In this document: positions 28,833-45,913 of the stretch, in pieces
Layout of the letters: each line of letters starts with the position of its first letter
Position numbering within the stretch: position 1 is the first letter of the stretch
From: Candidatus Daviesbacteria bacterium
Lineage (GTDB): Bacteria > Patescibacteriota > Microgenomatia > Daviesbacterales > UBA10151
DNA: 64,000 nt
Assembly (NCBI GenBank): GCA_016432425.1
Contig: CP066688.1
Location: forward strand, 343,398-407,397
Reading direction: 5' to 3'
Program-made: the position numbers and the translations under genes
Notes under the pieces: generated by a model
The model's input: the letters and a program-made list of their open reading frames with translations, nothing else
Database searches by the model: none
What the model was told of the DNA's origin: nothing

Positions 28833-29924
28833 ATGAAATTTTCCATTTTACAACAGGATTTATTGCCAGCCCTGCAAGCAGTCTCCCGCTGTGTTAATCC
28901 TCATGCCAGTTTACCGGTTTTAGCCAATATTTATTTATCTGCCCAAGGGCAAGAGATTAGGTTGGCGGCCACTAATTTAGAAATCGGTATTTTTAAAACT
29001 TTTAAAGCAGAAATTATTGAGGAAGGGGAAATTACTGTGCCGGCCAGGATGTTTTTAGATTTAATCAGCTCTTTACCGGGGACAAAATTAGATTTTGAAA
29101 CCAGCCAGGATATTTTATTATTAAAAAGCGGTAAATTTAAAGCTCAAATTAATGGTTTATCAGCCAGCGAGTTCCCCGTCATTCCTTTACCTCAAGATCA
29201 TCAAATTGATTTTCCATCAGAGGTTTTTAGGACATCACAGTCAATTTTGTTTGCGGCAGCCACAGATGAGGGACGCCCTACCTTAACCGGTATTTTAGTT
29301 TTTACTAAAGGAGATAATTTAAACTTTGTGGCCACTGACGGTTTTCGCTTGGCTTTTAAAGAGGTCAAGTTAACAAAAACGCAGGAGTTTAAATTTTTAG
29401 TACCCAGGCGAACTTTTGAAGAAGTACTGCGCTTATTGGATGAGGAAGAAGTAGACAATCTAAAGGTGACCAGTTCCCCAAACCAGGTAGTCTTTGCTTT
29501 TAGCAAAACCATTCTTTCCTCCCGGTTGATAGAGGGCTCTTTTCCGGCCTGGGAAAAAATTATTCCAACGGAAATAAAGACTCGTTTAATTATTAATAAA
29601 GAAGAGTTGTTGAAAGCTTTAAAAATAGCCTCAGTTTTTGCCAAAAATGAAGCCAATATTATTAATTTGGATTTAAAAAAAGAGGGGTTGATAGTCAAAT
29701 CCGCTTCCCGTCAACTTGGTTCTCAGGAAATGGAAGTAGAGGGACAAATAGAAGGGGAGGAGTTGTTGGTAGCTTTTAATGCTAAATTTTTACTTGATGC
29801 CGTCAGCAACTTACCTACCAGCCAGGCTATGTTGGAATTTTCCGGGGAACTAACTCCCTGTCTGGCCAAACCAGTAGGCATGGAGGGATTGCAGTACGTG
29901 GTCATGCCGATGGGGAGAAGTTAA
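28833..29924 (+). CDS. dnaN: DNA polymerase III beta sliding clamp
   Basis: 363 aa, three-domain beta-clamp pattern, immediately downstream of dnaA. Confidence 0.9.
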   Translation: MKFSILQQDLLPALQAVSRCVNPHASLPVLANIYLSAQGQEIRLAATNLEIGIFKTFKAEIIEEGEITVPARMFLDLISSLPGTKLDFETSQDILLLKSGKFKAQINGLSASEFPVIPLPQDHQIDFPSEVFRTSQSILFAAATDEGRPTLTGILVFTKGDNLNFVATDGFRLAFKEVKLTKTQEFKFLVPRRTFEEVLRLLDEEEVDNLKVTSSPNQVVFAFSKTILSSRLIEGSFPAWEKIIPTEIKTRLIINKEELLKALKIASVFAKNEANIINLDLKKEGLIVKSASRQLGSQEMEVEGQIEGEELLVAFNAKFLLDAVSNLPTSQAMLEFSGELTPCLAKPVGMEGLQYVVMPMGRS

Positions 29925-30376
29925 ACTCCTTGATAGCTAATGGTTTTAATATGATAAATAAACTCTTGATCCAGCTTAATTCCATCCTCAGTATGGGTGT
30001 TGGGTAGAATAAATAAAGTCAAACCGCTACCCAATTGTAATGGTTTTTTAAATTTAAACCTAAAAGTCTGGCCATAACTAGTGTTTATGCCATTAAGGAC
30101 TTCCAGATCATATTCTAGAGTCTCCGGGTCAAATTTATGTTTCACCTCTGATTTCATCACAGGCATATTAAAAGTAATTTCAATATCCTGGGTAGGCAAA
30201 ATAATGGCATTATCTAAAGGGTTAGGCTTAGTGGAAACTATTTTTAGTTGCTTTTCCTGGGTAGCTTCTTTTTGTGGGTTCTGTTGTCCAATAGAAAGAC
30301 TATCTTTAAACAGAAAAAAACCCATCAAAAGAAATAATATAGTTAAGGATACTTTATATTTATTTAACAAATTCAT
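29921..30376 (-). CDS. small secreted protein (last gene of T4SS-like operon)
   Basis: Signal peptide KVSLTILFLLMGFFLF; no domain. Confidence 0.35.
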   Translation of the reverse strand: MNLLNKYKVSLTILFLLMGFFLFKDSLSIGQQNPQKEATQEKQLKIVSTKPNPLDNAIILPTQDIEITFNMPVMKSEVKHKFDPETLEYDLEVLNGINTSYGQTFRFKFKKPLQLGSGLTLFILPNTHTEDGIKLDQEFIYHIKTISYQGV

Positions 30377-30380
30377 ATCT

Positions 30381-32408
30381 TTATTTTACTAAAAGTTCCC
30401 GTGCAAATTGTTGATGCAAAGGTTTGCTGCGCTGGTAAGGATTATTGGGAATAGCGGGTTCACAGGCGGCTCCAATTCCCAAGCTTTGCTCTGGAAACTC
30501 TAAGTTTAAAAAATAAGTTATCGTCTCTGCATAATCTTCGCTAAGGTTATTAATTCCTCCAATGCAACTGTTCCCGTTTTGGGAATAACTAGTCAAATAA
30601 CCTTCTTGACTAATTACCGATTGCAACTCGTTTTTCTTAGCAGTTTGTGGGTAGCAGTTTTCTATAATATGGGAAAGTTCATGGATAAAGACCACCTTAA
30701 ATAACCCTTCTGAGTAAGGTTGTTTAGTAGAAGAGCTAACTCCACTCATAGTTAAAGAATTACAAGAAATTTGTTCATTAAATCCGCGATCTAGTCTTCT
30801 AATATTAATAATATTATGGTTGGGATTAACTAAGTTTAAAAATTTAGTGTTAGAGATACCCCACAACTTCTCCCAGGCCCATTTTAAGTAGTTGTAACCA
30901 AAAGCAGTATCCATGTTAATGCCGAAAGCGTTTAAAATGTCGTCATGTAATTTTTGTTGATCAGTACTAGGCGGAGGTGCGTTAACAGAAACAGGCCGAC
31001 AGTTTTGCAGGCTGTTCCATAAATCATCCCCATAGTTATATGGTCCGGCGCATCTAGTAGTACCGCTGGCTGTTTTTTCAGATGTACCATATTCCAAGCA
31101 ACCATAATATCCTTCTGCGACTCTGTTTATGATAGTCTGATCACTGGTCCAGGAAGGATTCCACTCAACAGCACCTAATTTACTTAAGATCAAACCAGCT
31201 GAGAGGATAATACTACCTCTGGGGTCACAAAAATCTGCCTGAGTAAGCTGGTCGACGGTTTTATTTAAAAAACTGGCCCCTTTTTCTACCCCGCTAGCAG
31301 AATAAGCTGCTGCCAGCCCCCAAGGTGGTTGAATTTGCATAATACCTAAAGCCCCGGTCGGGTTAATAGGACACTTCTCAGCTCCCAGAGTTGGCAGATC
31401 AGCATCAGCGACTTTGGTAACAGAAGGAGTTTCCACCCTGGCAATGGCTGCCAAAAGGGTTGATGGTACTGAAGTTAATGTTTCAGCTTCTTGGAAGTAA
31501 CTTAAAAGTAGTGGACTTTGATAACTTTCAGCTTGAGGGTTTCGATCTCCCCGATAAAACTGGCAAGAGTTAATATTGCCAATTCCGCCAGCTTCAGCTT
31601 TCTGATAAGGGGGGATGAAACTGCCGCTTTCTAAGATGTTAAAAATAAGCGGTCCTATAAAAATGACTGCCACCACAATTAAAACTGCCACCACAATGGG
31701 CCAACCTACACTGGCTACGGCTGCTCCTCCGGCCATCACTGCTCCCCTGGCTGCCCCCTGGGTTAACATGCCTCCTGCCCGGCCCGCTCCCCCCAGTCCC
31801 TGGAATAATCCTGACCCCACCCCCCGGACCAGGGAACCAGCACCTCTAAGGGTATTTTCTCCCAGCCGGCGGGTTAAAATTTGCCCATGAGAGGAAAAAT
31901 CTTTAAAACTAGAGGGTATTTCCCATTTGGGTCGGGGAATATTAGGTGGGGAGGGGGTTTGAGGAGGTGGCCCTCCCTCAGTAGGTGTTTTACTAATTTC
32001 CTGCTGGACTCTTTTTAAAGCAGCTTCTTCGACTTTCCCCTCTAGTTTATTAAGCCATTTGTTTAAATTGTCCTCTTTTTGGTCAGGATCACTTAACTTA
32101 TCCTTTAAAGCTGTTTCCAACTCTGTGGCTTGTTGTTCGTTTAAGACTGGGGGGGCAGCCGGGTTAATTAATCTTCTTAAATTTAAATCTACTTTTTTGT
32201 TGGCATACAATTTTTCTACCAGCTCATTATCTTCTTGATAAACCCGATAAGCAGGCAATAAATGGCGGACCAGGCGCAAGATAGGTTTTTTAGCAATAAA
32301 ATATCCTCTAATGACCACAAAATGGCGGTCCGGTTTTTCTTTGAATTGGTCAATGGCCCCTCGAGGCTCAAAAAGCAATCTAAAAATTCTGGCGTCTTGT
32401 TGGGCCAT
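30381..32408 (-). CDS. T4SS-associated cell-wall hydrolase: TM protein with lytic transglycosylase (SLT) domain and C-terminal HExxH metallopeptidase-like domain
   Basis: TM AVMAGGAAVASVGWPIVVAVLIVVAVIFIG; SLT-like AIARVETPS…ALGIMQIQPPWG; FIHELSHIIEN; adjacent to VirB4. Confidence 0.5.
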   Translation of the reverse strand: MAQQDARIFRLLFEPRGAIDQFKEKPDRHFVVIRGYFIAKKPILRLVRHLLPAYRVYQEDNELVEKLYANKKVDLNLRRLINPAAPPVLNEQQATELETALKDKLSDPDQKEDNLNKWLNKLEGKVEEAALKRVQQEISKTPTEGGPPPQTPSPPNIPRPKWEIPSSFKDFSSHGQILTRRLGENTLRGAGSLVRGVGSGLFQGLGGAGRAGGMLTQGAARGAVMAGGAAVASVGWPIVVAVLIVVAVIFIGPLIFNILESGSFIPPYQKAEAGGIGNINSCQFYRGDRNPQAESYQSPLLLSYFQEAETLTSVPSTLLAAIARVETPSVTKVADADLPTLGAEKCPINPTGALGIMQIQPPWGLAAAYSASGVEKGASFLNKTVDQLTQADFCDPRGSIILSAGLILSKLGAVEWNPSWTSDQTIINRVAEGYYGCLEYGTSEKTASGTTRCAGPYNYGDDLWNSLQNCRPVSVNAPPPSTDQQKLHDDILNAFGINMDTAFGYNYLKWAWEKLWGISNTKFLNLVNPNHNIINIRRLDRGFNEQISCNSLTMSGVSSSTKQPYSEGLFKVVFIHELSHIIENCYPQTAKKNELQSVISQEGYLTSYSQNGNSCIGGINNLSEDYAETITYFLNLEFPEQSLGIGAACEPAIPNNPYQRSKPLHQQFARELLVK

Positions 32409-32430
32409 GGCAGTAATTTGATTCTACACT

Positions 32431-34146
32431 TTAACCTTGCTGGCGAGCAAGGATCTCGGCCGGGTTGGAGGTAATTAACTGGTGTTCCTCGGGGGAGGCC
32501 ACTACCCTCATGGCCACATGAGTATTGCCGGCAAAAAAGAGCCCCTGGCCCACTCCGGCAGCCAGCAGCAGACGCTGTTCACCTTCTGATAGATAAAAGA
32601 CTTGGGCCACTTTTTCTATTGAAGCCGGGGCTTGTTTTAGTAGTACCTGGATGGAGGAGTTGGAGATAATTTCTTTGCCCCGGTCAGTCCCCAAAAAATC
32701 TTCCACATCCTGGGTAATGGTGGTCAGCCCCAAATAATATTTGCGGGCCCTTTTGGCCATATCGACCAAGAAATCAGCGCTATCTTGGTTTTGCATTAAA
32801 TACCAGGCCTCATCCACCACCAAAAGGCGTTTTTTGAGTTTAGAGCGCACTTTGGTCCAGATGTACTCCAAAATAATATACATGGCCAAAGGACGCAGTT
32901 GGTCAGGCAGGTCACGCAGGGAAAAGACAGTAAAAGAGTTGCTGATATCAATATTGGAGGGTTGAGAAAAAATACCTGCCAAGGATCCTTTGACAAAGCG
33001 TTCCAGCCGGGCAGAGAGACTGGTGGCAATAGCATCTTCCATACCCATTAAAACTTTGTATAAATCTTCCATTAGAGGGGCGGGGCGGTTTTGGGTTTTG
33101 GGGTCATCAGTAATACCAAAACTGGCATAAGTTTGTTTTAAGCTTCTGTCTAAGATGGCTGCCTCTTGGGGGGAGAGTTGCCCTAAAACCAGTTTTAAAA
33201 AGCCAGTCAAAGACAAAATTTTTCGTCCCAACTCATTTTCTCCTGGATCGCCACTTAAAGATAGGTCAAAAGGGTTGATTTTAACTGCTGAATTAACTGA
33301 AAAGTTTAGATATTCTCCGCCAATAGCTTTGCACAAATTTAAATATTCCTGCTCCGGGTCAATCACCAAAATTTCCGTGCCAAACATTAAAGAACGCAAG
33401 GCTTCCAGCTTAACAAAATACGACTTCCCTGCTCCGGATTTGGCAAAAACTACCGAGTTGGCATTTTCCAAAGAAAAACGGTCGAATAAAATTAATGAAT
33501 CATTGTGTTCGTTAATCCCATACATAATGCCACTGTTGGAAGTTAACTCTGAGGAGGCAAAAGGAAACATGGAAGCCAGTGAAGTAGTGTCCATATTATG
33601 AGTAAAATTAAGCAAATCTTCCCCTAAAGGGAGGCTGGATTTAAAACCTGCCTCCATTTGCAGGGTGGTGGGTCTGGCCGTCATCGACAAAGAGGCCAGA
33701 GTAGATTCTACCAGTTTAGAGGTATTAGCTAACTCTTCTTTATTGTCCGTGGGCAGGGTGACATAAAGGGAATACTGGAAAAACCGCTCGGTGCCCCGCA
33801 CCAATTGATCTTGTAGGGCCCGGGCATCTTCTAAGGCCACTTCCACCGCCGGGTTAACTTGCTGCCCCCGTTCTAAGTCAGTTTGGATGGTGGCTTCCAT
33901 TTCAGCAATTTTCCTTTTTAGATCATTTAAGACTCCACTGGGCTGTTGTGGATAAATAAACATGGATAGATACAGCGAGTGGTCAAAAGAAATGACTGGT
34001 TCCAGCCAATTTAAGTCGACAAATCTGGGGTAAGCAGACACAAAATAGGTGCGATAAAAGGTTTGGTTAATCCGTAAATGGTTAAAATCCACCTCCATTT
34101 CCGCCGGGGCAATCAAATCAACTAAATTTAAATTATGGGGGTTCAT
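32431..34146 (-). CDS. type IV secretion ATPase VirB4/TrbE/PrgJ family (C-terminal ATPase portion)
   Basis: Walker A VVFAKSGAGKSYFVK, Walker B LLVVDEAWYLM, GLTTITQ; overall VirB4-like pattern. Confidence 0.75.
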   Translation of the reverse strand: MNPHNLNLVDLIAPAEMEVDFNHLRINQTFYRTYFVSAYPRFVDLNWLEPVISFDHSLYLSMFIYPQQPSGVLNDLKRKIAEMEATIQTDLERGQQVNPAVEVALEDARALQDQLVRGTERFFQYSLYVTLPTDNKEELANTSKLVESTLASLSMTARPTTLQMEAGFKSSLPLGEDLLNFTHNMDTTSLASMFPFASSELTSNSGIMYGINEHNDSLILFDRFSLENANSVVFAKSGAGKSYFVKLEALRSLMFGTEILVIDPEQEYLNLCKAIGGEYLNFSVNSAVKINPFDLSLSGDPGENELGRKILSLTGFLKLVLGQLSPQEAAILDRSLKQTYASFGITDDPKTQNRPAPLMEDLYKVLMGMEDAIATSLSARLERFVKGSLAGIFSQPSNIDISNSFTVFSLRDLPDQLRPLAMYIILEYIWTKVRSKLKKRLLVVDEAWYLMQNQDSADFLVDMAKRARKYYLGLTTITQDVEDFLGTDRGKEIISNSSIQVLLKQAPASIEKVAQVFYLSEGEQRLLLAAGVGQGLFFAGNTHVAMRVVASPEEHQLITSNPAEILARQQG

Positions 34147-34889
34147 ATATTATCTCCTAACTCTTCTACGACAAAAGGATGGGTTTTGGCCCGGGCCAAA
34201 TTGGGAAAAAAATTGCTGGTCGGAGTAATTGGAATGGGAGTTGGCTTTGGCTGGGTGGGAAAGGGAGTAGCAGCTACTTGGGGAGCTGCTAATTTAACAG
34301 GGGGAACCTGCACCGGAGTAACTATTTTAGTACTAATAGTTTGGTTATAGATATTAAAAAATAATTTGACCAGCTGGGCATTTTTCAACTGCTCTGCCTT
34401 GATGCCGGCCCGGGAGAGCTGGCGGATAATTTGATCGCGCCGGGGTAAAATAATGGCCTTAATTTTAGGCAACTGAGATAGGGAGTTAGGTTTTAAAGAC
34501 AGCCCCAGTTCCAGCGAGGAAACATTGATGGCAATATAGAAATTTTTATCCAACACTTCGTTTTCTTTGATGGTTTGTTGAATAAAATTGCGGTAGCGGG
34601 TCATCATAGCAGAAAGCAGAGGATTGTTTTGTAGTTTTTGGGCGCTATCCAATAAAGTTAAATATGAGCTAATATCTAACTTGATTGACTGGATAATAAT
34701 TTGGATGGGAAAAGATAAAGAGTTGAGCAGTTGGGCAAAGCTGTCGACAATGGCCAGTTGTTCTTTTTGGGAAAGCAGCCCAAAATTGACTGCCCCCACT
34801 TTTAATACTAAGGTGGCACCGCCGTCTTTTAAAAGTAGTAAGTCGCTGTTGATATCTTGAACTGTTAAGCTATTTTGAGTTTTGGTCAT
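34143..34889 (-). CDS. hypothetical protein, possibly detached N-terminal domain of VirB4 (ATGA overlap with downstream ATPase), Pro/Thr-rich tail
   Basis: 248 aa + 571 aa roughly equals typical VirB4 length; 4-nt overlap; no motif of its own. Confidence 0.3.
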   Translation of the reverse strand: MTKTQNSLTVQDINSDLLLLKDGGATLVLKVGAVNFGLLSQKEQLAIVDSFAQLLNSLSFPIQIIIQSIKLDISSYLTLLDSAQKLQNNPLLSAMMTRYRNFIQQTIKENEVLDKNFYIAINVSSLELGLSLKPNSLSQLPKIKAIILPRRDQIIRQLSRAGIKAEQLKNAQLVKLFFNIYNQTISTKIVTPVQVPPVKLAAPQVAATPFPTQPKPTPIPITPTSNFFPNLARAKTHPFVVEELGDNI

Positions 34890-35743: not shown

Positions 35744-35919
35744 TTAAGAAGGATCATATAGTGTGAAAAAAATGTATGCAAGGGTTTAAAAGTGGATCAT
35801 TTTGGAGCAAACCTATATGAATTTCCTCCTTGCCAATACTAAATATTGAGTGTACATTAAAGGCGTGGTGTATCGTCCTGAGTACTTAAGGGAAATCGAA
35901 GTATCGAAGGGGAAGATAC

Positions 35920-36961: not shown

Positions 36962-36997
36962 TTTGATTTTAAATTTTTAGAGGTTTAAACTTAACTT

Positions 36998-38845: not shown

Positions 38846-40522
38846 TTATCGGCGTGGCGGTTGAGATAATTGGCCCAGTCTATTTGTAAAGGAAGTTAAC
38901 CAGCGCGGCGCTCCAGGAGCGGTTGCTCTTTCTTCTAATAATCTAGATCCCGCTGCAGCTGCTCCTCTGCCAAAACTAGGTGCTGCTGCTGTCACCACAG
39001 TTTGCCCCCGGCCCAATCCTGCCATGGCCTCTTGGGGAATACCGGCAATATCTTTAACCCCAAAAGCGTTTTTGACCATATCAGGGATGGCTGGAGTGCC
39101 TAAAATTAAGCCGTAGGCAATAATTAATCTCAACAACTCGATACTTAAACCGCCAAAAAGTGGGGGTGAGGCTACCCAAGACTTTGAGTCAGTTTGCAAG
39201 ATCATACCGGCAAACAAAAAAGCGGCAAAAACAGCCGGGAAAACTAAAGCATTAGCTAAAATTGTTTTCCACCATAAATTTAAAGAGCCTCCCTTGCCGG
39301 GAATAGAGGAATATAAAATAATAAATGGTGAGAGGATAGTGGAAACCAGCAGGGCAATGTAGGCCCCGATTAATTTCCACAGCAACCTAAAAAATTGGAT
39401 CAATAAAGCAATCACTAAAATTAAAGGGACAATCAATCCCACAATGCCGGTGAAGGCTGCTCCCGCTCCTGCTCCCAGGGCAGTGCCTGCTCCCAAACCC
39501 AGAAGTGTACCTGCTCCCGGAAAAACAATAGTGCCCACAATGGTTCCGATAATGGCCGGCAACCCAATGGCTAAAGCTGCTCCTCCCCTTTCACCGCCTA
39601 CAGTTGAAGATAGGGTCCCAAAAAGCCCTTTAGTGACATCATGGATATTTTCCGGAATCCTAAAAGTTGACACAAACATATTGAAAACATTGGAACTATT
39701 GGCTAAATCCTGAACCTGTAAAACATTAGGGGTGGCCAAAAAAATCTGGGCTACTGCTTGGACCCCGACAAAAGAAGTGTCAATTAACAGAGCAGAGAAA
39801 AAATAACTAAAGGTCACTAAAACTATACCTATGACCAGTCCAGGCAAGGCAGCCTGGGCGGAAATAACAGTTTGAGGATTAATTTTAGAGCGGAACATGA
39901 TCATAAAACCAATGGCAATAAAAACAAAAGTAAAAATAAAATAGGCCAAGTTTCTGCTAATTAGCCAAAGTTGCCTAACTGGTTCAATAATGCCCGCTCC
40001 TGACCCGCCCACCTGGGCATAGGCAGGTTTGGCTAAAAAATTATTTCCTACAGAGGCTAAGTATTGGACAGTAGAAGTAGGTGGGTTGGTATACATGGCC
40101 ACAAAAATATTAGTCACTCCTGCTAAAGCCCCCCCACTTTGGCCAGGACTGTAAAGGACAATTTTGCGCTCTTTGCCAAGGGTAATTCCCAAACATTCGT
40201 CCACCGGGCTCATCCCGGCCAGTTCACAAAACATGCTGTGTTCTAAATTTAAAATAGTGTAATTAGAATGTTGGGGAGCCTTATAATTTTCCTGGGTAAC
40301 TGATTTAGGTGTAGGCTTAGGAGAAGGGGAAGGAGAGGTTTGGATACCAGTATTATCTCCTGGAGCTTGAACGGATTTGGAGGTATTAACTGGATCATTA
40401 GTGATTTCAGCCTGGACATTAGTAGCCAGTAGTAAACAGTAAACAGTAAACAGTAAAAATAAAATTATGGCTTTACTGACAACTGACAACTGACGGCTGA
40501 AAGCTGAAATTAGGGCAGACAT
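38846..40522 (-). CDS. VirB6/TrbL-like polytopic membrane protein with signal peptide and Pro/Ser-rich N-terminal region
   Basis: Multiple Gly/Ala-rich TM helices (…GAGTLLGLGAGTALGAGAGAAFTGIVGLIVPLILVIALLIQFF…); located in T4SS cluster. Confidence 0.5.
   Translation of the reverse strand: MSALISAFSRQLSVVSKAIILFLLFTVYCLLLATNVQAEITNDPVNTSKSVQAPGDNTGIQTSPSPSPKPTPKSVTQENYKAPQHSNYTILNLEHSMFCELAGMSPVDECLGITLGKERKIVLYSPGQSGGALAGVTNIFVAMYTNPPTSTVQYLASVGNNFLAKPAYAQVGGSGAGIIEPVRQLWLISRNLAYFIFTFVFIAIGFMIMFRSKINPQTVISAQAALPGLVIGIVLVTFSYFFSALLIDTSFVGVQAVAQIFLATPNVLQVQDLANSSNVFNMFVSTFRIPENIHDVTKGLFGTLSSTVGGERGGAALAIGLPAIIGTIVGTIVFPGAGTLLGLGAGTALGAGAGAAFTGIVGLIVPLILVIALLIQFFRLLWKLIGAYIALLVSTILSPFIILYSSIPGKGGSLNLWWKTILANALVFPAVFAAFLFAGMILQTDSKSWVASPPLFGGLSIELLRLIIAYGLILGTPAIPDMVKNAFGVKDIAGIPQEAMAGLGRGQTVVTAAAPSFGRGAAAAGSRLLEERATAPGAPRWLTSFTNRLGQLSQPPRR
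40431..40508. repeat. two heptanucleotide repeat tracts inside 5' coding region of VirB6-like gene
   Basis: agtaaac x3 plus agtaaaa (40431-40458); tactgac/aactgac/aactgac/ggctgaa/agctgaa (40474-40508). Confidence 0.7.
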
Positions 40523-40569: not shown

Positions 40570-41142
40570 TCACTGTTCAGTAACTGGTTTAACTCCCTCC
40601 GGGAAATTAGCCTGCTGGTAGGTTTCCTCATAATCTTTAACCTTTTCGACTCCTGGAAGAGTTGGCAAATCTGTGCCATAAACCCCAGTGGGTCCCCTTA
40701 AAAAGCTCTTTAGTTGTTCTATGGGGGTACCTTGTAACTTGACATCTGGAGGGGTTTGAGTTTGCTGAATAGTTTCTGATTGGACAAAAAACTTTTCTAT
40801 ATTAAGGGTTTGCCCGGCTTTACTTACTAATTCTGAGAAAAAATTACCTATTCCACTCAAAATCTGGCTTACTAAATCCTGATTAGGTAATTTATCTTTA
40901 ACTGCCTCCGGGGCCAATAAATTCTGGTTCAAATTATAAACAGCCTGTTCCTCAGAATTTATGGTAATAGCCTGAATAGGAGTAGCCAGTAGTAAGTAGC
41001 CAACAGTAAACAGTAAAAATATAATTGTTATCTTATTAACAATTAATTTAGGGGCAGACATAGTTTTAAAATTTACAGGTTCCGTTATAAACACTACTTT
41101 TAAGTGAAGCAATATTTCCCCCACCAACTCTGGCTGGTCCAC
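40570..41142 (-). CDS. small secreted/membrane protein with N-terminus paralogous to VirB6-like protein
   Basis: ITIIFLLFTVGYLLLATPIQAI vs IILFLLFTVYCLLLATNVQAEI; underlying DNA also heptamer-periodic (agtagcc agtagta agtagcc aacagta aacagta). Confidence 0.35.
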   Translation of the reverse strand: MDQPELVGEILLHLKVVFITEPVNFKTMSAPKLIVNKITIIFLLFTVGYLLLATPIQAITINSEEQAVYNLNQNLLAPEAVKDKLPNQDLVSQILSGIGNFFSELVSKAGQTLNIEKFFVQSETIQQTQTPPDVKLQGTPIEQLKSFLRGPTGVYGTDLPTLPGVEKVKDYEETYQQANFPEGVKPVTEQ

Positions 41143-42997
41143 GGGTACTAAAAGTATATTTACTTCCTGGCGGCATCTTTCTATTTACAAGAAGATTATC
41201 ATAAGGATTTTTCAGTTCTCCATAACGACCAATAGCATAACCTACTACTTTACCTCGGTTATCATATCCCACCTGGATAATTACAGCTCCTCTGTAGAAG
41301 GTATCAAGTGTTAAATCTCCTTTATTAATGACCACCCCACTTCCCACCATGAATCTTTGATCAGGAGCAAGATTTAATGATGAAGATTCAAATTCCACCA
41401 TACCGTAATCTCTGGGATAAGTAGAGACTGGATTGGTGGGTTGCTCTGAAAGTTCGACACTAGCACGGTCTATATTACCGGCGGCTAAAGAGGCTGTCAT
41501 AATATTATGAGGTCCAGCATCAAAAGTGGCGCCTACATAATCCTTATTAGGATTCATACAATAGAAGCTTATTTCAGTTGTTTTTGCCACTGGAGAATTA
41601 TTTCTGGTCAGAAATTGAGGAGTAAAACTTAAATATTGTCTCCAAAAATTAGGCATAGTTAATTCCCACACTGCATGGATACGGTTTTCTCGGCAGTTAC
41701 GTTCAGTAGGATTATTAATACAATCCCATGAAGGTCCTTCAAAAATCTGTACGTCTTTAAATACTACTTTAGTAGAGGTAATCACACCTGTAGGTTTTTC
41801 TAAAGTAGGGGTAATTGGTGTATAAGTAGGTGAATATATTTGGTTCAACGGTCTTTGTCGTAGATAATCTTGAACTGCCCAATTACCATCACTTAACTGC
41901 CACCATAAATAACCATCAGTATAAACCGGACCTCCGGTAACAAAAACTGAGCTACCCTCTTTTTCGCAGCGTTGCACTCTACTGTTGGTGGAAGGTTGTT
42001 CCCTAATATTTAAACAGCTGCCGGTCCCGGAAATGACGGCTTGATCTTTAAGAGTAAAAGCAGGGGTGGGAGTAGGTTGAGGAATTTCGGTAGGGGTAGG
42101 GATGACGGTAGGAACAACTAATGGGGAAATATCTGGGGGTGGGTTTTTGGTTAAATAAACCGGGTTAAAATCAATATAATTAATGGTACCCTCACAATCC
42201 TTAGAGTTTCTACTTTCCTCCCTGCACCAACTGGTATTAGCTACCCTAGGTTCTTCTCCTGATTTAGCGAGGATACCATTGCGGTCACCGGGTAAACTTT
42301 TGTGTGCCCAGCCGGCAATGGGTTGGGATTCATCAAAAGGAACTGGTTGGTCACCTTTGTACAAGGCTACATCTACATGAGGGCCGCTATTAAAATGGTC
42401 GGGGCTATGTTCACAAGAAGTAAAACCCAATTCGCTGGTGTAGGCGACTTTGTCTCCTGGTTGTACTTTGATTTCACCCAAATGTTCATATTCGCTGCTG
42501 TAACCATTAGGATGGTCAATTCTGACCATACTGTGCCGTGGGTCGTTGGGATTATTTTCCTTCCCCACCCAAGCTACTACTCCCGGGGCCATTGGCCTGA
42601 TAGGTATAGTGCGGATGATTAATGTTTTTTCTGGCTCACATAAGCCGGCAGCCACGGAAAAGTCTAAATGCCCGCTATGGGCCCCACCGCCTCCGCCGGT
42701 AAAATAACCCCGGCCCCAAAAAGGGAACTGCCAGCCCAAGTTTTGTGCCCCTTGGTCTGGCTGACTGACTATTGGTGAGCTGTCTAATGGCTGATCAGGT
42801 GAAGAAGGTGTGGTCCCACAACCGACAAGAGCCAAACCAGCCAGTGGTAATAGTAAATTTAAATTGGAGTTTGAGGGGTGGTTAGAATCTAAAAAATAAT
42901 TAACGCGAAGTTCGTCTGCCAGAGATGGTCCAATTACTCCTTTACCCCAATCTCTGGAGCCATCATCCAAATAAGTGTAGCCTAATTCTTTACTCAT
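41066..42997 (-). CDS. lipoprotein with M23/LytM-like peptidase domain (HxH degenerated to HVD) plus additional beta-rich domains
   Basis: Lipobox LALVGCG; GAHSGHLDFSVAAG; RIDHPNGYSSEYEHLGEIKVQPGDKV; GPHVDVALYK in place of GPHLHFE. Confidence 0.45.
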   Translation of the reverse strand: MSKELGYTYLDDGSRDWGKGVIGPSLADELRVNYFLDSNHPSNSNLNLLLPLAGLALVGCGTTPSSPDQPLDSSPIVSQPDQGAQNLGWQFPFWGRGYFTGGGGGAHSGHLDFSVAAGLCEPEKTLIIRTIPIRPMAPGVVAWVGKENNPNDPRHSMVRIDHPNGYSSEYEHLGEIKVQPGDKVAYTSELGFTSCEHSPDHFNSGPHVDVALYKGDQPVPFDESQPIAGWAHKSLPGDRNGILAKSGEEPRVANTSWCREESRNSKDCEGTINYIDFNPVYLTKNPPPDISPLVVPTVIPTPTEIPQPTPTPAFTLKDQAVISGTGSCLNIREQPSTNSRVQRCEKEGSSVFVTGGPVYTDGYLWWQLSDGNWAVQDYLRQRPLNQIYSPTYTPITPTLEKPTGVITSTKVVFKDVQIFEGPSWDCINNPTERNCRENRIHAVWELTMPNFWRQYLSFTPQFLTRNNSPVAKTTEISFYCMNPNKDYVGATFDAGPHNIMTASLAAGNIDRASVELSEQPTNPVSTYPRDYGMVEFESSSLNLAPDQRFMVGSGVVINKGDLTLDTFYRGAVIIQVGYDNRGKVVGYAIGRYGELKNPYDNLLVNRKMPPGSKYTFSTRGPARVGGGNIASLKSSVYNGTCKF

Positions 42998-43009
42998 TGT
43001 TTATTTAAA

Positions 43010-43342
43010 TTAAGGACACCAATTAGTTCCGCCAACATTACACAAAGTTTTAATGTCAAAAGTTTTTAAGCCTTCTAAGCCGGTAAAGGCCGCAACCAGC
43101 TGCAATACCAGCCAGGCAATGACCAAAAACAGTATTCCTAAAAGGGCCCAGGTGACTGTCATGGAGGCTGACTGGATGGCTTTGGCATCTCCCCCGGAAG
43201 TTAAGTACCTAATTCCTGCCCACACTAATACCATCACCAAAGCTACAAAAGCCGCGGCTACTGACAAATTAATGATTCTGCCAAAAAGCGCTTCCAGTTG
43301 GGTCAGGCCGGCTGCATCGCTGACTACATTGGCGGGGGTCAT
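43010..43342 (-). CDS. T4SS pilin-like protein (VirB2/TrbC-like, 2 TM), paralog 1
   Basis: Two hydrophobic helices flanking SGGDAKAIQSASMTVTWA motif. Confidence 0.5.
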   Translation of the reverse strand: MTPANVVSDAAGLTQLEALFGRIINLSVAAAFVALVMVLVWAGIRYLTSGGDAKAIQSASMTVTWALLGILFLVIAWLVLQLVAAFTGLEGLKTFDIKTLCNVGGTNWCP

Positions 43343-43379
43343 AATTTAAAATTATCACTCGGATAAGCCCAGGTCAAGC

Positions 43380-43805
43380 TCAGCGTGATAAAGAGGGGGT
43401 GGGGTTTTGTGGTGAAGGAATAGTGAATTCTCTTAACAGATCAACTCCTAAGAATCCTCCGGCCAGTTGGACTATGGCAAAAGCTACTGCCAAAATGGCC
43501 AGCCCCACTAGGGCATGGATAATTCTACCTCTGGCATTGCCAATGGCATCTTTATTACCCCCGGATAAAATCCACTCCACTGCCCCCCAGACTAACATCA
43601 CTAAGGCAATAATTAAAGCAATAATAAAAATTAGCCTAATTCCGGCATTTAAAAAATCAGAGATATTAGCAAAACCTACGTCAGGTTTTTTGATTTGGAT
43701 GGTGGTATCTGCGGCCCACACTCCCACCGGATTTAAAAGTGCTGTTGCGGAGGCGGTTAAGATAGATAGTTTTTTCATTTCTAATTTAATAGTATGCAAC
43801 CCCAA
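43380..43805 (-). CDS. T4SS pilin-like protein, paralog 2 (signal peptide + 2 TM)
   Basis: MKKLSILTASATALL signal; WILSGGNKDAIGNARGRIIHA motif. Confidence 0.5.
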   Translation of the reverse strand: MGLHTIKLEMKKLSILTASATALLNPVGVWAADTTIQIKKPDVGFANISDFLNAGIRLIFIIALIIALVMLVWGAVEWILSGGNKDAIGNARGRIIHALVGLAILAVAFAIVQLAGGFLGVDLLREFTIPSPQNPTPSLSR

Positions 43806-43813
43806 TTAGTTTG

Positions 43814-44149
43814 TCAAGTTTTAAAGAAAGTAAATCCGGTAAAGATTCCCACTAGGTTTAAAATAGCAAAAGTAATACCCAAAAGAATAATGCCGATAAT
43901 AGCATGAGTAATTCTACCTCTGGCATTGCCAATGGCGTCTTTATTGCCGCCTGACATAATCCACTCAAAAGCTCCCCATACCAGCATAAAAACAAAAATA
44001 ACAGCTGCGATTTCATAAATTAAAATTATCAAGTTGCTTAAAAATAAGCTAATTCCGCCGGCTCCGGTCGGGTCTTTTTCTACAAAAGGCTGCAAGGGAA
44101 GAGGGGGAGTAATTTTACCAAAGACATCTTCTACGGCTGCCAGTTTCAT
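43814..44149 (-). CDS. T4SS pilin-like protein, paralog 3
   Basis: WIMSGGNKDAIGNARGRITHA; ~85% nt identity to paralog 2 across motif region. Confidence 0.5.
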   Translation of the reverse strand: MKLAAVEDVFGKITPPLPLQPFVEKDPTGAGGISLFLSNLIILIYEIAAVIFVFMLVWGAFEWIMSGGNKDAIGNARGRITHAIIGIILLGITFAILNLVGIFTGFTFFKT

Positions 44150-44469
44150 TGGCCTCCTTTAATAATTTGGAAATTGGGAATATCAAATAAAGCAGACAAA
44201 ACAAACTGTAAAATTAAAAAGGCCATCATTAAGATTATAAACCCAATCATAGCATGGGTCATCATCCCCCGGCCGGAATTCAATGCTTCTTTGTCTGATC
44301 CGGCAGTTAAAAACTTAAAAGCCCCAAAGATAAAATAAAATACTACCAGCCCTGCCGCAATGGAAAAGGTGGGAGCGACTAACCGGTCAACGCCTTGGCC
44401 CAGCGAGGAAATTTCTCCAAAAGCAAACTCATCTTTTAATTTCACTTCAGCAATTAAATTATTTATCAT
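44146..44469 (-). CDS. T4SS pilin-like protein, paralog 4
   Basis: FLTAGSDKEALNSGRGMMTHA flanked by two TM helices. Confidence 0.5.
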   Translation of the reverse strand: MINNLIAEVKLKDEFAFGEISSLGQGVDRLVAPTFSIAAGLVVFYFIFGAFKFLTAGSDKEALNSGRGMMTHAMIGFIILMMAFLILQFVLSALFDIPNFQIIKGGQ

Positions 44470-44789
44470 ATTGGTATGACTACTTTGCTATTTGGTTGCA
44501 AAATTTCCTTGGCAAATTGGGCGACAGCGAAGGCCAGGGCAATCATAATCAAACCAACGATGGCCCAAATAATTCTGGATCTGGCTTGAGCCAATTTTTG
44601 CTTATCCCCACCGGCCGCAATGTATTGAAAAGCAGCCCAGACAATCCAAAAAAAAGCTAAAAAAGCCGCCAAATAAAAGGTCATGTTCAACAGCCCGGAG
44701 ATAACATCTCCCAAATTATTAAATTTGCCTGGACCGGTTCCCCCAACCGGAGATGTGTCCCAAATTTTTGGTAAATCCTTAAATTCCAT
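44466..44789 (-). CDS. T4SS pilin-like protein, paralog 5
   Basis: YIAAGGDKQKLAQARSRIIWA flanked by two TM helices. Confidence 0.5.
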   Translation of the reverse strand: MEFKDLPKIWDTSPVGGTGPGKFNNLGDVISGLLNMTFYLAAFLAFFWIVWAAFQYIAAGGDKQKLAQARSRIIWAIVGLIMIALAFAVAQFAKEILQPNSKVVIPI

Positions 44790-44791
44790 AA

Positions 44792-45913
44792 TTATACTTC
44801 AGGTAGTATTCCTAGTATATCAACTCCGATAATTTGCATAAAGAGGACGGAAAAGACGACAAATAAAATACCAATAATAGCACTGGCAAAACGGTCATGG
44901 CCGGCTTTTAACCTTTCCGGGCTGCCGGCAGAGGTGATCATCTCCAGTACCCCAATTAACATCAGCAAAAAGGCAACCCCGCCCCCAATACCCAGGCTAA
45001 AACGGAAAAGATCTGTAATTAAAGCTAAAGGTTTAGTGTGGACACAACCAATGGCGGTAGCTACACCCTCTCCACTGTCACAAGCAATGCCGGATGAAGA
45101 AGTACAACCAGGAGTGCCGGGAGTACAAGGAGGGGGAATGGAAGAAGAAAAAGTATGACCCTTCTTATCAGTGGTTATTACTAAATTGGCGGTAGTAAAA
45201 ATATTTTTATTGTCTGGAGTTAAGATTTGAGCTTGGATATTGTATGATCCAGCCGCTAAATCAGCTACTCGATTGGAGATGTTAATACTAGAAGTACCTG
45301 AATTATCAGTTGAGCCTTGTCCAATTGGTCTCCCTTCTAAATTAGTAATCTTCAATTGAATAAAAGCTTTTTCTATCGGACTCCCATCGTTTTTTTTCAA
45401 AGTAGTATTTGCTGTAAAATTTTCTCCTGCTTTACCGCTAGAAGGGTTAATCGATAAAGTTGATTGATAATCAGATTGGGCTGGCTGAACAGTAAATTTG
45501 ATGGTATGACTGGTTTTTTGTAGTTTCCAACTACAAAAAGCTCTATTACCTAAGACGTCAATATTGCATGACTCTTTGTATACTCTGGCAAAGACTTCAT
45601 AGTTACCAGTTGTTTGGGGATCTATTCCATAACTACCCTCAGGATTCCTTGCTAAAAGAGAATCATAACTGCGGCTATCTGTATAACATTGGCTATCGGC
45701 TCTAGAGCCAGTAAATATTAAATCAGCGGCATCCTTTTTAAAATAAATAACTAAACATGTCCCAACATCAATTCCGTCATAAGAAATAAGCAAGTTATCT
45801 TGGGCAGTAGGAGAAGCAGGAGAGAGAGTTATAGAAAGAGAGGCTGAATAAATCTCCAATGGTATTAAGAGAGATATTAAAAGAATACTTAAAAAAGTAA
45901 CTATTTTGGGCAT
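44792..45913 (-). CDS. secreted Ser/Thr-rich protein with C-terminal pilin-like 2-TM domain (candidate tip/adhesin pilin)
   Basis: Signal peptide; ~280-aa extracellular region; C-terminal MITSAGSPERLKAGHDRFASAIIG between two TM helices. Confidence 0.45.
   Translation of the reverse strand: MPKIVTFLSILLISLLIPLEIYSASLSITLSPASPTAQDNLLISYDGIDVGTCLVIYFKKDAADLIFTGSRADSQCYTDSRSYDSLLARNPEGSYGIDPQTTGNYEVFARVYKESCNIDVLGNRAFCSWKLQKTSHTIKFTVQPAQSDYQSTLSINPSSGKAGENFTANTTLKKNDGSPIEKAFIQLKITNLEGRPIGQGSTDNSGTSSINISNRVADLAAGSYNIQAQILTPDNKNIFTTANLVITTDKKGHTFSSSIPPPCTPGTPGCTSSSGIACDSGEGVATAIGCVHTKPLALITDLFRFSLGIGGGVAFLLMLIGVLEMITSAGSPERLKAGHDRFASAIIGILFVVFSVLFMQIIGVDILGILPEV

What the first reader, a model, noticed from the sequence alone, without database searches (positions are those of the whole stretch)
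29921..45913. Chromosomal T4SS-like apparatus directly downstream of dnaN, with no relaxase or coupling protein
A roughly 16 kb minus-strand cluster starts 0 bp after dnaN and runs from 45913 down to 29921. In transcription order it encodes a pilin-domain adhesin-like protein, five pilin-like paralogs, an M23-like lipoprotein, and a small paralogous secreted protein. These are followed by a VirB6/TrbL-like membrane protein, a VirB3-like 2-TM protein fused to a CnaB-like domain, and a possibly split VirB4 ATPase. The cluster ends with a hydrolase combining a lytic transglycosylase and an HExxH domain, then a small secreted protein. No VirD4, relaxase, VirB11 or origin of transfer can be recognised in the 64 kb. 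That pattern argues against a conventional conjugative element. A surface filament or translocation machine is the more likely function, for example cell-cell attachment or DNA or protein exchange in an episymbiont. Sitting next to the replication origin points to a core rather than accessory role.
Basis: partly seen in the sequence, partly recalled or inferred. Interest (0 to 1): 0.8.

Follow-up and report, generated by a model that had tools for sequence, protein, structure and literature searches.

The report
Known Patescibacteria type IV secretion locus
This is the type IV secretion gene cluster next to the replication origin that ultrasmall Patescibacteria (here a Daviesbacteria genome) are already known to carry and probably use to exploit host cells.

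Summary
The gene content is real. Six tandem VirB2-type pilin genes, an M23 peptidase, PrgI/VirB3 and a VirB4 ATPase all pass curated thresholds. VirB4 is preceded by a separate TrsD-like N-terminal piece. The cluster's 3' end overlaps the dnaN stop codon by 4 bp, about 3 kb from three perfect DnaA boxes. No relaxase, VirD4, VirB11 or recombinase was found in the 64 kb.

The window comes from a Candidatus Daviesbacteria MAG. PrgI-TrsD-VirB4 lies next to dnaN/dnaA in 61 of 80 related species, so it is a vertically inherited core locus, not an ICE.

All of this has been published (Wang 2023; Quinonero-Coronel 2025; 2025 FEMS review). The finding is correct but already known.

Corrections:
- The cluster is not uniformly minus-strand. 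Positions 35879-38839 hold a plus-strand cobalamin riboswitch and two orphan genes.
- 'Split VirB4' is the conserved TrsD+VirB4 arrangement.
- A VirD4 homologue may lie elsewhere in the genome.

Additions:
- The 558-aa membrane protein has no sequence-family hit, but its model matches VirB6 (TrwI) and DotA best.
- The riboswitch-controlled opposite-strand operon recurs at the same place in related genomes and appears undescribed.

The parts
44792..45913 (-). First gene of the pilin block (373 aa): signal peptide, Ig-like region, Cys-rich linker and a C-terminal VirB2-type two-TM pilin domain. Candidate adhesive or minor pilin.
   Evidence: PF18895 scores 27.7 bits (GA 26.6) at residues 298-359. 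Big_3_5, Big_1 and MG2 hits are sub-threshold. TM segments at 4-22, 305-323 and 346-364. The C-terminal part is 55% identical in L082. The adhesin role is inferred.
43010..44789 (-). Five tandem VirB2-like pilin paralogues: 44466-44789, 44146-44469, 43814-44149, 43380-43805 and 43010-43342.
   Evidence: PF18895 scores 40.7, 29.5, 31.6, 33.1 and 26.7 bits. Each has two TM helices. Pairwise identity is 32-53%. The best NCBIfam hit is the Mycoplasma ICE pilin-like family NF045849, at 39.8 bits against a cut-off of 40.
41066..42997 (-). M23 peptidase lipoprotein (643 aa). A lineage-specific accessory cell-wall hydrolase.
   Evidence: Peptidase_M23 scores 37.8 bits (GA 28.7). A lipobox LVGC is visible. 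It has no homologue at this position in the 12 nearest loci.
40570..41142 (-). Small secreted protein of unknown function. The likely true start is the ATG at 41061.
   Evidence: No family hit. One N-terminal hydrophobic segment. Its signal peptide is 64% identical to that of the 558-aa protein. A homologue sits at the same place in L082.
38846..40522 (-). Polytopic membrane protein (558 aa, about 8 TM). Candidate VirB6/DotA-class channel or stalk subunit.
35879..36038 (+). Cobalamin (B12) riboswitch. It is the 5' leader of the embedded plus-strand operon.
   Evidence: RF00174 scores 40.6 bits (GA 31.5) over the full-length model, with the B12 box AAGUCCGGAGACC. A promoter-like site lies at 35830-35858 (+) just upstream. 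B12 riboswitches occur at the same relative position in L005, L006, L026 and L088, and a few kb further upstream of PrgI in L002 (all at or above GA). L073 is just below GA and L003 has a weak hit.
36059..36961 (+). Orphan cytoplasmic protein (300 aa) with a C-terminal Cys-rich zinc ribbon. Member of a B12-riboswitch-associated family.
   Evidence: No Pfam, NCBIfam, PHROG or PDB hit. No TM or signal peptide. Homologues in L005, L073, L003 and L084 all follow a B12 riboswitch-like leader. In L084 the gene sits next to riboswitch-controlled DUF4430 and DUF6580 genes.
36998..38839 (+). Orphan cytoplasmic protein (613 aa), convergent with the VirB6-like gene. Member of a small family found in this slot of the T4SS locus.
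34886..35743 (-). PrgI/VirB3-like membrane protein fused to a beta-sandwich domain.
   Evidence: PF12666 PrgI scores 32.5 bits (GA 27) at residues 5-89. CarboxypepD_reg scores 24.6 bits (GA 32.3) at residues 202-258. It lies upstream of TrsD-VirB4 in 73 of 80 loci.
34143..34889 (-). TrsD-like protein, the free-standing counterpart of the VirB4 N-terminal domain.
   Evidence: NF045975 positions 109-281 at E 2.4e-8 and NF041427 TrsD at E 1.8e-4. Precomputed PF26593 TraC-like hit. Present in 75 of 80 loci. A 4-bp overlap with the VirB4 start suggests translational coupling.
32431..34146 (-). VirB4 ATPase of the monoderm, MPF-FATA-like type.
   Evidence: NF045971 scores 386.7 bits (cut-off 325), aligned to profile positions 183-733 of 752. 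P-loop_TraG scores 88.3 bits. Walker A and B are intact. It is 73-78% identical to Daviesbacteria homologues.
30381..32408 (-). Membrane-anchored cell-wall hydrolase (VirB1-like role): N-terminal cytoplasmic region, one TM, an SLT-like domain and a C-terminal HExxH domain.
   Evidence: SLT scores 15.3 bits (GA 21.3). 11 of 14 homologues hit SLT, best 1.7e-6. Glu326 is invariant and His580 is conserved in at least 90%. Homologues swap in M23 or CHAP modules. TM at 238-256 and HELSH at 580.
29921..30376 (-). Small secreted protein (151 aa). It is the last gene of the cluster and its stop codon overlaps that of dnaN.
   Evidence: Big_5 is sub-threshold (E 0.014). It is conserved next to dnaN in 6 close relatives.
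26790..29924 (+). Origin context: dnaA, a Holliday-junction-resolvase-like endonuclease gene and dnaN, plus DnaA boxes at 26806-26844 and 28191-28231.
   Evidence: All three DNA_pol3_beta domains are present. There are three perfect and two one-mismatch DnaA boxes. The cumulative GC-skew minimum is at 27-29 kb.

Best explanation
[quoted passage not shown] It derives from the conjugation machinery of monoderm bacteria (MPF-FATA class) but has been repurposed.

**Proposed working (inferred from homology)**
- PrgI/VirB3, the TrsD piece and the VirB4 ATPase form the energised platform at the cytoplasmic membrane.
- The 558-aa VirB6/DotA-like protein forms the membrane channel or stalk.
- The SLT/HExxH hydrolase and the M23 lipoprotein open the cell wall.
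- VirB4 extracts the six VirB2-type pilins from the membrane and polymerises them into a pilus. The Ig-domain pilin fusion is a candidate adhesive subunit.
- The apparatus works at the contact site with a host cell. It moves macromolecules between host and epibiont, either as protein export or as uptake of host material. It does not perform relaxase-dependent conjugation.

**Transcription.** The locus has two minus-strand units, 45913-38846 and 35743-29921. A B12-riboswitch-controlled plus-strand operon separates them.

For: **Monoderm affinity.** The best VirB4 models are the Clostridioides CD1110 family and the Mycoplasma ICE family.

**Host genome.** NCBI names the window's proteins Candidatus Daviesbacteria. 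The nearest VirB4 loci are Daviesbacteria and other Microgenomates. The lineage was checked.

**Core, not mobile.** In 80 related species TrsD is present in 75, PrgI in 73 and dnaN/dnaA in 61, within 24-6438 bp downstream in 59 of them. Flanks are housekeeping genes with no recombinase. oriC is adjacent.

**No DNA-processing partner in the window**. The embedded orphan p613 has no relaxase or T4CP fold.

**Literature**
- The same system was described across 3,035 genomes: TrsD, PrgI, arrays of 2-11 pilins abundant in Microgenomatia, no relaxase, and proximity to dnaA/dnaN/rnpA (PMC12102498).
- The homologous Southlakia locus and its pilins are essential for epibiotic growth (PMC10633639).
- A review treats it as a pilus-forming monoderm T4SS (PMC12857230).
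- A 2026 preprint reports tubular structures that may be T4SS pili at a parasite-host interface.
Against: - No experiment exists for any Microgenomates member. Essentiality and host contact are extrapolated from Saccharibacteria.
- No VirB8-like component or T4CP was identified here. The rest of the genome could not be searched.
- Substrate and direction of transport are unknown.
- The genes lie on the lagging strand, head-on to replication. This sits awkwardly with the published idea that the position serves high expression.
Confidence: 0.85

Rival explanations
1. It is a conventional or decaying integrated conjugative element (ICE) that happens to lie next to dnaN.
For: All recognisable parts descend from conjugative MPF-FATA systems. 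GC content is slightly higher, 0.42-0.465, in parts of the cluster than in the flanks at 0.37-0.40.
Against: No relaxase, T4CP, integrase or recombinase in 64 kb. The same gene order lies next to dnaN/dnaA in 61 of 80 species, which implies vertical inheritance. The 2025 survey finds relaxases near virB4 in only 15 cases among 2,474 virB4 genes.
Confidence: 0.03
2. It is a DNA-uptake (competence) machine that takes DNA from the environment, like Helicobacter ComB or the archaeal Ced system.
For: VirB4 shows weak similarity to CedB (E 2e-15, far below cut-off). Patescibacteria cannot make nucleotides. The 2025 paper suggests import of DNA or other macromolecules. A ComFC-like gene lies at 55733-56425.
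Against: In Southlakia, natural transformation depends on ComEC. ComEC is dispensable for growth while the T4SS is essential, so the essential role of the T4SS is not ComEC-linked DNA uptake. No DNA-binding or DNA-processing component was recognised in the locus.
Confidence: 0.12
3. It is only an adhesion organelle. VirB4 assembles a VirB2-type pilus that tethers the cell to its host, and nothing is translocated.
For: There are six pilin genes, one fused to Ig-like domains. No coupling protein is in the window. Pilin arrays that diverge fast suggest surface recognition.
Against: A VirB6/DotA-like channel subunit and two wall hydrolases are conserved alongside. Patescibacteria already use type IV pili for adhesion. 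VirD4-like genes exist elsewhere in most Patescibacteria genomes.
Confidence: 0.12

Closest known systems
Patescibacteria T4SS as in Candidatus Southlakia epibionticum ML1 (SEML1_0006-0019; Wang 2023) and the phylum-wide 'Patescibacteria clade' of Quinonero-Coronel 2025
   Same: VirB4 with an adjacent TrsD-like gene, PrgI/VirB3, a VirB6-like protein and wall hydrolases next to virB4. An array of about six divergent VirB2-like pilins. No relaxase or T4CP in the locus. Position next to dnaA/dnaN (papers).
   Different: - This is a Microgenomates (Daviesbacteria) locus.
- Its VirB6-like protein escapes all sequence profiles, in line with the paper's remark that VirB6 is 'scarce' in Microgenomatia.
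- One pilin is fused to Ig-like domains.
- A B12-riboswitch operon on the opposite strand splits the locus. Neither paper mentions this.
MPF-FATA conjugative T4SSs of Firmicutes (pCF10 Prg/Pcf, pIP501 Tra, pGO1 Trs, C. difficile CTn CD1110-type VirB4)
   Same: VirB4 passes the CD1110-family model. PrgI and a pGO1-like TrsD are present. The hydrolase is membrane-anchored and multi-domain with SLT, as in PrgK/TraG. There are no outer-membrane core components.
   Different: No relaxase, T4CP or oriT in the window. The locus is chromosomal and syntenic across a whole class. It has VirB2-type pilins, which Gram-positive systems generally lack.
Mycoplasma ICE transfer genes (NCBIfam Mbov_0395 pilin-like protein and Mbov_0397 VirB4)
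   Same: The second pilin scores 39.8 bits against the Mbov_0395 pilin-like model (cut-off 40). Two more pilins hit it weakly. The TrsD-like protein aligns to the N-terminal region of the Mbov_0397 VirB4 model.
   Different: All these scores are below the family cut-offs. Mycoplasma ICEs are mobile elements with their own DDE recombinase (from my own knowledge, not tested here).
VirB6 (TrwI) of R388 and DotA of the Legionella Dot/Icm system
   Different: No detectable sequence similarity. It is twice the length of TrwI. No VirB5/IcmX-like partner was recognised.
Cobalamin riboswitch regulons (Rfam RF00174 / RF01689)
   Same: The element at 35879-36038 passes the RF00174 threshold with a B12 box. 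Related loci carry RF00174 or RF01689 at the same place.
   Different: The controlled genes are not known B12 transport, synthesis or isozyme genes. They are orphan cytoplasmic proteins inside a T4SS locus. Only in L084 does a homologue sit next to DUF4430 and DUF6580 genes that have a B12 riboswitch of their own.

Membership tests
Patescibacteria-clade T4SS (Quinonero-Coronel 2025; Wang 2023) | VirB4 ATPase of monoderm (MPF-FATA) affinity with intact Walker motifs | tested here: met
   NF045971 scores 386.7 bits against a cut-off of 325. P-loop_TraG scores 88.3 bits. Walker A and B are present.
Patescibacteria-clade T4SS (Quinonero-Coronel 2025; Wang 2023) | VirB4 falls inside the monophyletic Patescibacteria clade | tested here: inconclusive
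   No tree was built. 595 stretches in the genome collection encode relatives, and the best 80 (56-78% identity) are from Patescibacteria or obviously mislabelled MAGs with the same synteny.
Patescibacteria-clade T4SS (Quinonero-Coronel 2025; Wang 2023) | Separate TrsD-like gene adjacent to virB4 | tested here: met
   The 248-aa ORF overlaps the virB4 start by 4 bp. It carries a PF26593 TraC-like hit, NF045975 N-terminal region at E 2.4e-8 and TrsD at E 1.8e-4. Present in 75 of 80 relatives.
Patescibacteria-clade T4SS (Quinonero-Coronel 2025; Wang 2023) | PrgI/VirB3 homologue in the locus | tested here: met
   PF12666 scores 32.5 bits (GA 27). Present in 73 of 80 relatives.
Patescibacteria-clade T4SS (Quinonero-Coronel 2025; Wang 2023) | Array of divergent VirB2-like pilins near virB4 | tested here: met
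   Six tandem PF18895 hits, all at or above GA. Paralogue identity is 32-53%.
Patescibacteria-clade T4SS (Quinonero-Coronel 2025; Wang 2023) | No relaxase associated with virB4; chromosomal position near dnaA/dnaN | tested here: met
   No relaxase in 64 kb. The cluster overlaps the dnaN stop codon. DnaA boxes and the GC-skew minimum are adjacent.
Patescibacteria-clade T4SS (Quinonero-Coronel 2025; Wang 2023) | Required for epibiotic growth on a host | not testable with these tools
   Known only for Southlakia, from Tn-seq.
Conjugative T4SS / integrative conjugative element | Relaxase (MOB) and oriT | tested here: not met
   No relaxase family hit in any ORF of about 140 aa or more. The embedded p613 model has no relaxase-like fold. 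oriT cannot be recognised without a relaxase family.
Conjugative T4SS / integrative conjugative element | Type IV coupling protein (VirD4/TcpA) | tested here: not met
   Not in the window. The only P-loops are DnaA, VirB4 and a 307-aa protein. The rest of the genome was not searchable, and the 2025 paper finds distant VirD4-like genes in most Patescibacteria.
Conjugative T4SS / integrative conjugative element | Integrase or recombinase, att repeats and variable genomic location | tested here: not met
   No recombinase. The position is fixed next to dnaN/dnaA in 61 of 80 species. att repeats were not searched for specifically.
VirB6/TrbL family (for the 558-aa protein) | Match to TrbL/VirB6 or PrgH sequence profiles | tested here: not met
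   No Pfam or NCBIfam hit for the protein. None of 40 homologues hits TrbL. The profile finds no PDB sequence.
VirB6/TrbL family (for the 558-aa protein) | Polytopic membrane protein with at least 5 TM helices, encoded within a T4SS locus | tested here: met
   About 8 hydrophobic segments. It lies between the pilin array and PrgI in the window and in relatives.
VirB6/TrbL family (for the 558-aa protein) | VirB6-like fold | tested here: inconclusive
VirB1-like lytic transglycosylase (for the 675-aa protein) | SLT domain with catalytic Glu | tested here: inconclusive
   The window protein scores 15.3 bits against GA 21.3. 11 of 14 homologues hit SLT (best 1.7e-6) and Glu326 is invariant.
Cobalamin riboswitch (RF00174) | Covariance-model score above the gathering threshold, with a B12 box | tested here: met
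   40.6 bits against 31.5, over the full-length model, with AAGUCCGGAGACC present. Ligand binding cannot be tested here.

The most novel reading that the evidence does not exclude
The plus-strand operon embedded in the T4SS locus consists of a cobalamin riboswitch, a zinc-ribbon orphan and the p613-family orphan. On this reading it is functionally tied to the secretion system. These cytoplasmic, fast-evolving proteins lack signal peptides and would be switched on when B12 is scarce. They would be T4SS cargo or accessory factors that the epibiont uses to obtain cobalamin, or cofactors more generally, from its host. That would give the enigmatic Patescibacteria T4SS a concrete, testable nutritional role.

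**Shown**
- The riboswitch is real and recurs at this position. It is at or above the Rfam threshold in the PrgI-proximal gap in the window, L005, L006, L026 and L088. It is also at or above threshold in L002 (a few kb further upstream of PrgI) and in L087 (a short contig with no PrgI).
- The p613 family is found in this slot of the locus in 6 of 6 known contexts.

**Not shown.** Any functional link to the T4SS. In L084, a p300 homologue lies outside any recognisable T4SS locus.
Probability: 0.12. Interest if true: 0.75.

Novelty: already known. Interest (0 to 1): 0.3.

Why it matters
The system itself matters. It is one of the few conserved, apparently essential envelope machines of a bacterial radiation that makes up a large share of uncultivated diversity, and its substrate is unknown. 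That case has already been made in print (Wang 2023; Quinonero-Coronel 2025; the 2025 FEMS review). This window adds another instance, not a discovery.

Three modest additions could be useful to specialists:
1. **A VirB6 candidate for Microgenomates.** The conserved family has at least 476 members, none of the best 120 carrying a Pfam domain, and a VirB6/DotA-like predicted fold. It may fill the 'missing VirB6' gap reported for this class.
2. **Better synteny than reported.** PrgI and TrsD are adjacent to VirB4 in about 90% of Microgenomates loci examined here. That is more than the 22.6% association reported for VirB3, which suggests the published profiles under-detect it.
3. **A B12-regulated operon inside the locus.** It recurs in one subclade and offers a regulatory handle and a testable hypothesis about what the locus is for.

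Tried and rejected
**VirB6-like protein (558 aa)**
- Sequence-based identification failed. Pfam, NCBIfam and PHROGs on the protein, Pfam on 40 homologues, and a profile search of PDB sequences all found nothing.
- Only structure comparison gave a lead.

**p613 (613 aa)**
- It has no family hit.
- I considered it as a hidden relaxase or T4CP and rejected that: it has no P-loop and no matching fold.

**p300 (300 aa)**
- No Pfam, NCBIfam, PHROG or PDB hit, apart from weak zinc-ribbon similarities.
The single-sequence scan gave only two loci.

**One family for all opposite-strand genes?**
- BLAST clustering and an HMM of the p613 family show they are not detectably a single family.
- They are several families sharing a position and, for the riboswitch-proximal gene, a Cys-rich C-terminus.

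**Further riboswitch copies**
- My own covariance model R1 found no additional copies in 85 sources.
- The feature is therefore confined to a subclade.

**ICE hypothesis.** Rejected on synteny and on the absence of recombinase and relaxase.

**Promoter and terminator scans.** Counts did not differ from shuffled controls. Operon boundaries rest on gene orientation only.

**The hydrolase against PDB sequences.** Nothing was found with the single sequence or with a profile.

Full report
**What is in the sequence**

ORF listing shows two blocks of minus-strand genes, 45913-38846 and 35743-29921. A plus-strand stretch, 35879-38839, separates them.

In transcription order the first block encodes:
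- a 373-aa protein with a signal peptide, an Ig-like region and a C-terminal pilin domain;
- five small two-TM pilins;
- a 643-aa M23 lipoprotein;
- a roughly 163-190-aa secreted protein;
- a 558-aa polytopic membrane protein.

The second block encodes:
- a PrgI/VirB3-like protein fused to a beta-sandwich domain;
- a 248-aa TrsD-like protein;
- a 571-aa VirB4;
- a 675-aa membrane-anchored hydrolase;
- a 151-aa secreted protein whose stop codon overlaps that of dnaN (29921-29924, convergent).

**Which assignments pass curated thresholds**

- All six PF18895 T4SS_pilin hits pass, at 26.7-40.7 bits against GA 26.6.
- Peptidase_M23, PrgI and VirB4 pass (P-loop_TraG 88.3 bits).
- VirB4 scores 386.7 bits against NCBIfam NF045971 'VirB4-like conjugal transfer ATPase, CD1110 family', cut-off 325. 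Walker A and B are intact.
- VirB4 aligns only to positions 183-733 of the 752-position model.
- The missing N-terminal part is supplied by the upstream 248-aa ORF. That ORF matches the N-terminal region of a Mycoplasma ICE VirB4 model (E 2.4e-8) and TrsD (E 1.8e-4). It also carries a precomputed TraC-like hit.
- The 'split VirB4' is therefore not a pseudogene. The same two-gene arrangement is present in 75 of 80 related species.

**The weaker assignments**

- The SLT domain of the 675-aa hydrolase is below threshold in this protein (15.3 against 21.3 bits).
  - 11 of 14 homologues hit SLT, and the catalytic Glu is invariant.
  - Other homologues combine the conserved C-terminal HExxH module with M23 or CHAP domains.
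  - This modular pattern is typical of wall hydrolases of Gram-positive T4SSs.
- The 558-aa protein has no hit in Pfam, NCBIfam, PHROGs or PDB sequences. None of 40 homologues hits TrbL/VirB6.
  - An AlphaFold2 model built on 40 homologues has pLDDT 74.
  - Its best Foldseek matches in the PDB are TrwI/VirB6 of plasmid R388, at ranks 1, 2 and 4 with E 0.04-0.13.
  - Two methods independently pull T4SS channel subunits from hundreds of thousands of chains. I read this as moderate support for a VirB6/DotA-class role. It is not proof.

**Absences**

- I scanned every ORF of about 140 aa or more in the window.
- The flanks are housekeeping genes: GroEL, LeuRS, TsaD, L25, YidC, RnpA, DnaA, DnaN, SpoIID, SmpB, tmRNA, DnaG and sigma-70.
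- There is no relaxase, VirD4/TcpA, VirB11, integrase or recombinase.
- Only DnaA, VirB4 and a 307-aa protein carry a Walker A motif.

**Origin of replication**

- Three perfect DnaA boxes lie at 26806-26844 and two one-mismatch boxes at 28191-28231.
- The cumulative GC-skew minimum is at 27-29 kb.
- oriC is therefore about 1.7-3 kb from the end of the cluster.

**Whose genome, and is the arrangement conserved**

- NCBI names the window's own proteins HYW45_01890 and HYW45_01920, 'hypothetical protein', Candidatus Daviesbacteria bacterium. They sit on an 820,589-bp contig. The lineage is Patescibacteria group, Microgenomates group.
- A scan of one genome per species with VirB4 found 595 stretches encoding relatives. 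The best 80 are Microgenomates-type MAGs at 56-78% identity.
- In those 80 loci TrsD is upstream of VirB4 in 75 and PrgI in 73.
- dnaN/dnaA lie within the 10-kb flanks in 61 loci. In 59 they are 24-6438 bp downstream of VirB4; in two they lie upstream.
- dnaN is convergent with VirB4 in 43 of the 61 loci and on the same strand in 18.
- Of the 19 loci without dnaN, 17 have less than 5 kb of sequence downstream.
- This is a vertically inherited core locus, not an island.

**Comparison with the literature**

- Quinonero-Coronel et al. 2025 (PMC12102498) surveyed 3,035 Patescibacteria genomes and report the following.
  - A monophyletic VirB4 clade is nested in MPF-FATA.
  - TrsD is the most abundant associated component, and PrgI/VirB3 is widespread.
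  - VirB6 homologues are 'scarce' in Microgenomatia, which they attribute to divergence.
  - VirB2-like arrays of 2-11 genes are especially abundant in Microgenomatia.
  - Relaxases lie near virB4 in only 15 cases.
  - VirD4-like genes are present in 2,918 genomes, but only 148 lie near virB4.
  - The locus lies close to dnaA, dnaN and rnpA, especially in Microgenomatia and Paceibacteria.
- Wang et al. 2023 (PMC10633639) showed by Tn-seq that the Southlakia T4SS genes (SEML1_0006-0019), including the pilin array, are essential for epibiotic growth. No coupling or relaxase proteins were recognisable there.
- The 2025 FEMS review (PMC12857230) presents these systems as monoderm T4SSs that may elaborate pili.
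- A 2026 preprint reports tubular structures that may be T4SS pili at a parasite-host interface.

**Mechanism**

The mechanism I commit to is inferred from homology, not shown here.
- PrgI, TrsD and VirB4 form the energised membrane platform.
- The VirB6/DotA-like protein forms the channel or stalk.
- The SLT/HExxH and M23 hydrolases breach the wall.
- VirB4 polymerises the VirB2-type pilins. The Ig-domain fusion is a candidate adhesive subunit.
- The apparatus operates at the host contact site to move macromolecules, not to conjugate DNA.
- Direction and substrate remain open. The rivals are a decayed ICE, environmental DNA uptake and an adhesion-only pilus. Each is given with its evidence in the rival explanations.

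- The 3-kb plus-strand insert begins with a cobalamin riboswitch at 35879-36038.
  - It scores 40.6 bits against RF00174 (GA 31.5) over the full-length model, with a B12 box.
  - It sits 21 nt downstream of a promoter-like site and 20 nt upstream of a 300-aa ORF.
  - A 613-aa ORF follows 36 nt after that.
- Both proteins lack TM segments and signal peptides and have no family hit.
- The arrangement recurs. In many Microgenomates loci one or two genes on the opposite strand sit between the VirB6-like gene and PrgI.
- B12-class riboswitches at or above Rfam thresholds lie upstream of PrgI on the strand opposite the T4SS genes. They occur in L005, L006, L026 and L088 (in the PrgI-proximal gap) and in L002 (a few kb further upstream).
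  - In L087, a short contig without PrgI, one precedes the p613 homologue.
  - L073 is just below threshold.
  - L003 has a weak hit, and L008 is supported only by the core motif and my own model.
- L088 reproduces the whole architecture. On one strand, in transcription order, it has pilins, the VirB6-like gene, PrgI, TrsD and VirB4. Between the VirB6-like gene and PrgI, on the opposite strand, lie a riboswitch, a zinc-ribbon protein gene and the p613 homologue.
- The p613 family is small, with 51 representatives in 1.84 billion proteins.
  - In all six contexts I could see, it is convergent with the VirB6-like gene.
- The p300 family always follows a B12 riboswitch-like leader.
  - In one metagenome contig with no recognisable T4SS genes (L084), the gene lies beside DUF4430 and DUF6580 genes. 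Those genes have a B12 riboswitch of their own.
  - This ties the family to the B12 regulon.
- Neither T4SS paper mentions a riboswitch. Literature searches linking cobalamin riboswitches with Patescibacteria or T4SS found nothing relevant.
- Whether the operon is functionally connected to the T4SS or merely occupies a permissive gap is unknown. I give a functional link about 12%.

**Verdict**

- The system is already known.
- Interest is low to moderate for the finding as stated.
- Two small leads are worth passing on: the VirB6/DotA-like family of Microgenomates, and the embedded B12-riboswitch operon.

Noticed in passing
window 35879-38839 (+); also L002 3180-3404, L005 5762-5841, L006 7864-7942, L026 1765-1963, L087 349-508, L088 3472-3548: A cobalamin riboswitch (RF00174, 40.6 bits, GA 31.5) leads a plus-strand pair of orphan genes (300 aa with a zinc ribbon, and 613 aa). 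The pair is embedded between the PrgI and VirB6-like genes of the T4SS locus. B12 riboswitches recur on the same strand upstream of PrgI in related genomes. The T4SS papers I read do not mention this.
   Followed up: partly
Loci L004, L007, L008, L015, L052, L063, L066, L070, L073, L076 and others, between the VirB6-like gene and PrgI: Many Microgenomates T4SS loci have one or two large genes (574-1337 aa) on the opposite strand at this position. None has a Pfam family, and there is almost no detectable similarity between genomes. The slot is conserved in position but hypervariable in sequence.
   Followed up: partly
window 29921-45913 relative to oriC at about 26.8-28.2 kb: The T4SS genes lie on the lagging strand of the right replichore, so they are transcribed toward the origin (head-on). 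In all 59 related loci where dnaA/dnaN lie downstream of VirB4, the VirB4 operon likewise points toward them. This sits oddly with the published gene-dosage and high-expression rationale.
   Followed up: no
window 40570-41142 and 38846-40522: The small secreted protein and the VirB6-like protein share a nearly identical signal peptide (64% over 25 aa) and nothing else.
   Followed up: no
80 loci, compared with PMC12102498: PrgI is adjacent to TrsD-VirB4 in 73 of 80 Microgenomates-type loci. The 2025 survey reports only 22.6% of Microgenomatia VirB3 homologues associated with VirB4. The published profiles probably under-detect PrgI, and VirB6, in this class.
   Followed up: partly
L084 3895-4081 and L085 493-679: A group I intron (RF00028, 67.8 bits) lies directly downstream of the p300 homologue in two metagenome contigs. 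Its host gene was not identified.
   Followed up: no
window 7763-10210 (-): An 815-aa secreted, Cys-rich protein has a HELGH motif and no family hit beyond a faint M6 metalloprotease match. A 440-aa orphan at 11270-12592 and a 595-aa orphan at 48536-50323 also have no family.
   Followed up: no
window 55733-56425 (+) and 50816-51181 (+): A ComFC-like gene (Pribosyltran plus a double zinc ribbon) lies about 10 kb from the T4SS cluster. Between them are tmRNA and smpB. A cluster of six tRNA genes lies at 56.6-60.1 kb.
   Followed up: no
record titles (for example L005, L009, L015-L017): Many public MAGs that carry this Microgenomates-type locus are labelled 'uncultured Gammaproteobacteria' or 'uncultured Pseudomonadales' ('binchicken' and TPA assemblies). 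These are evidently placeholder or wrong taxonomy labels.
   Followed up: no
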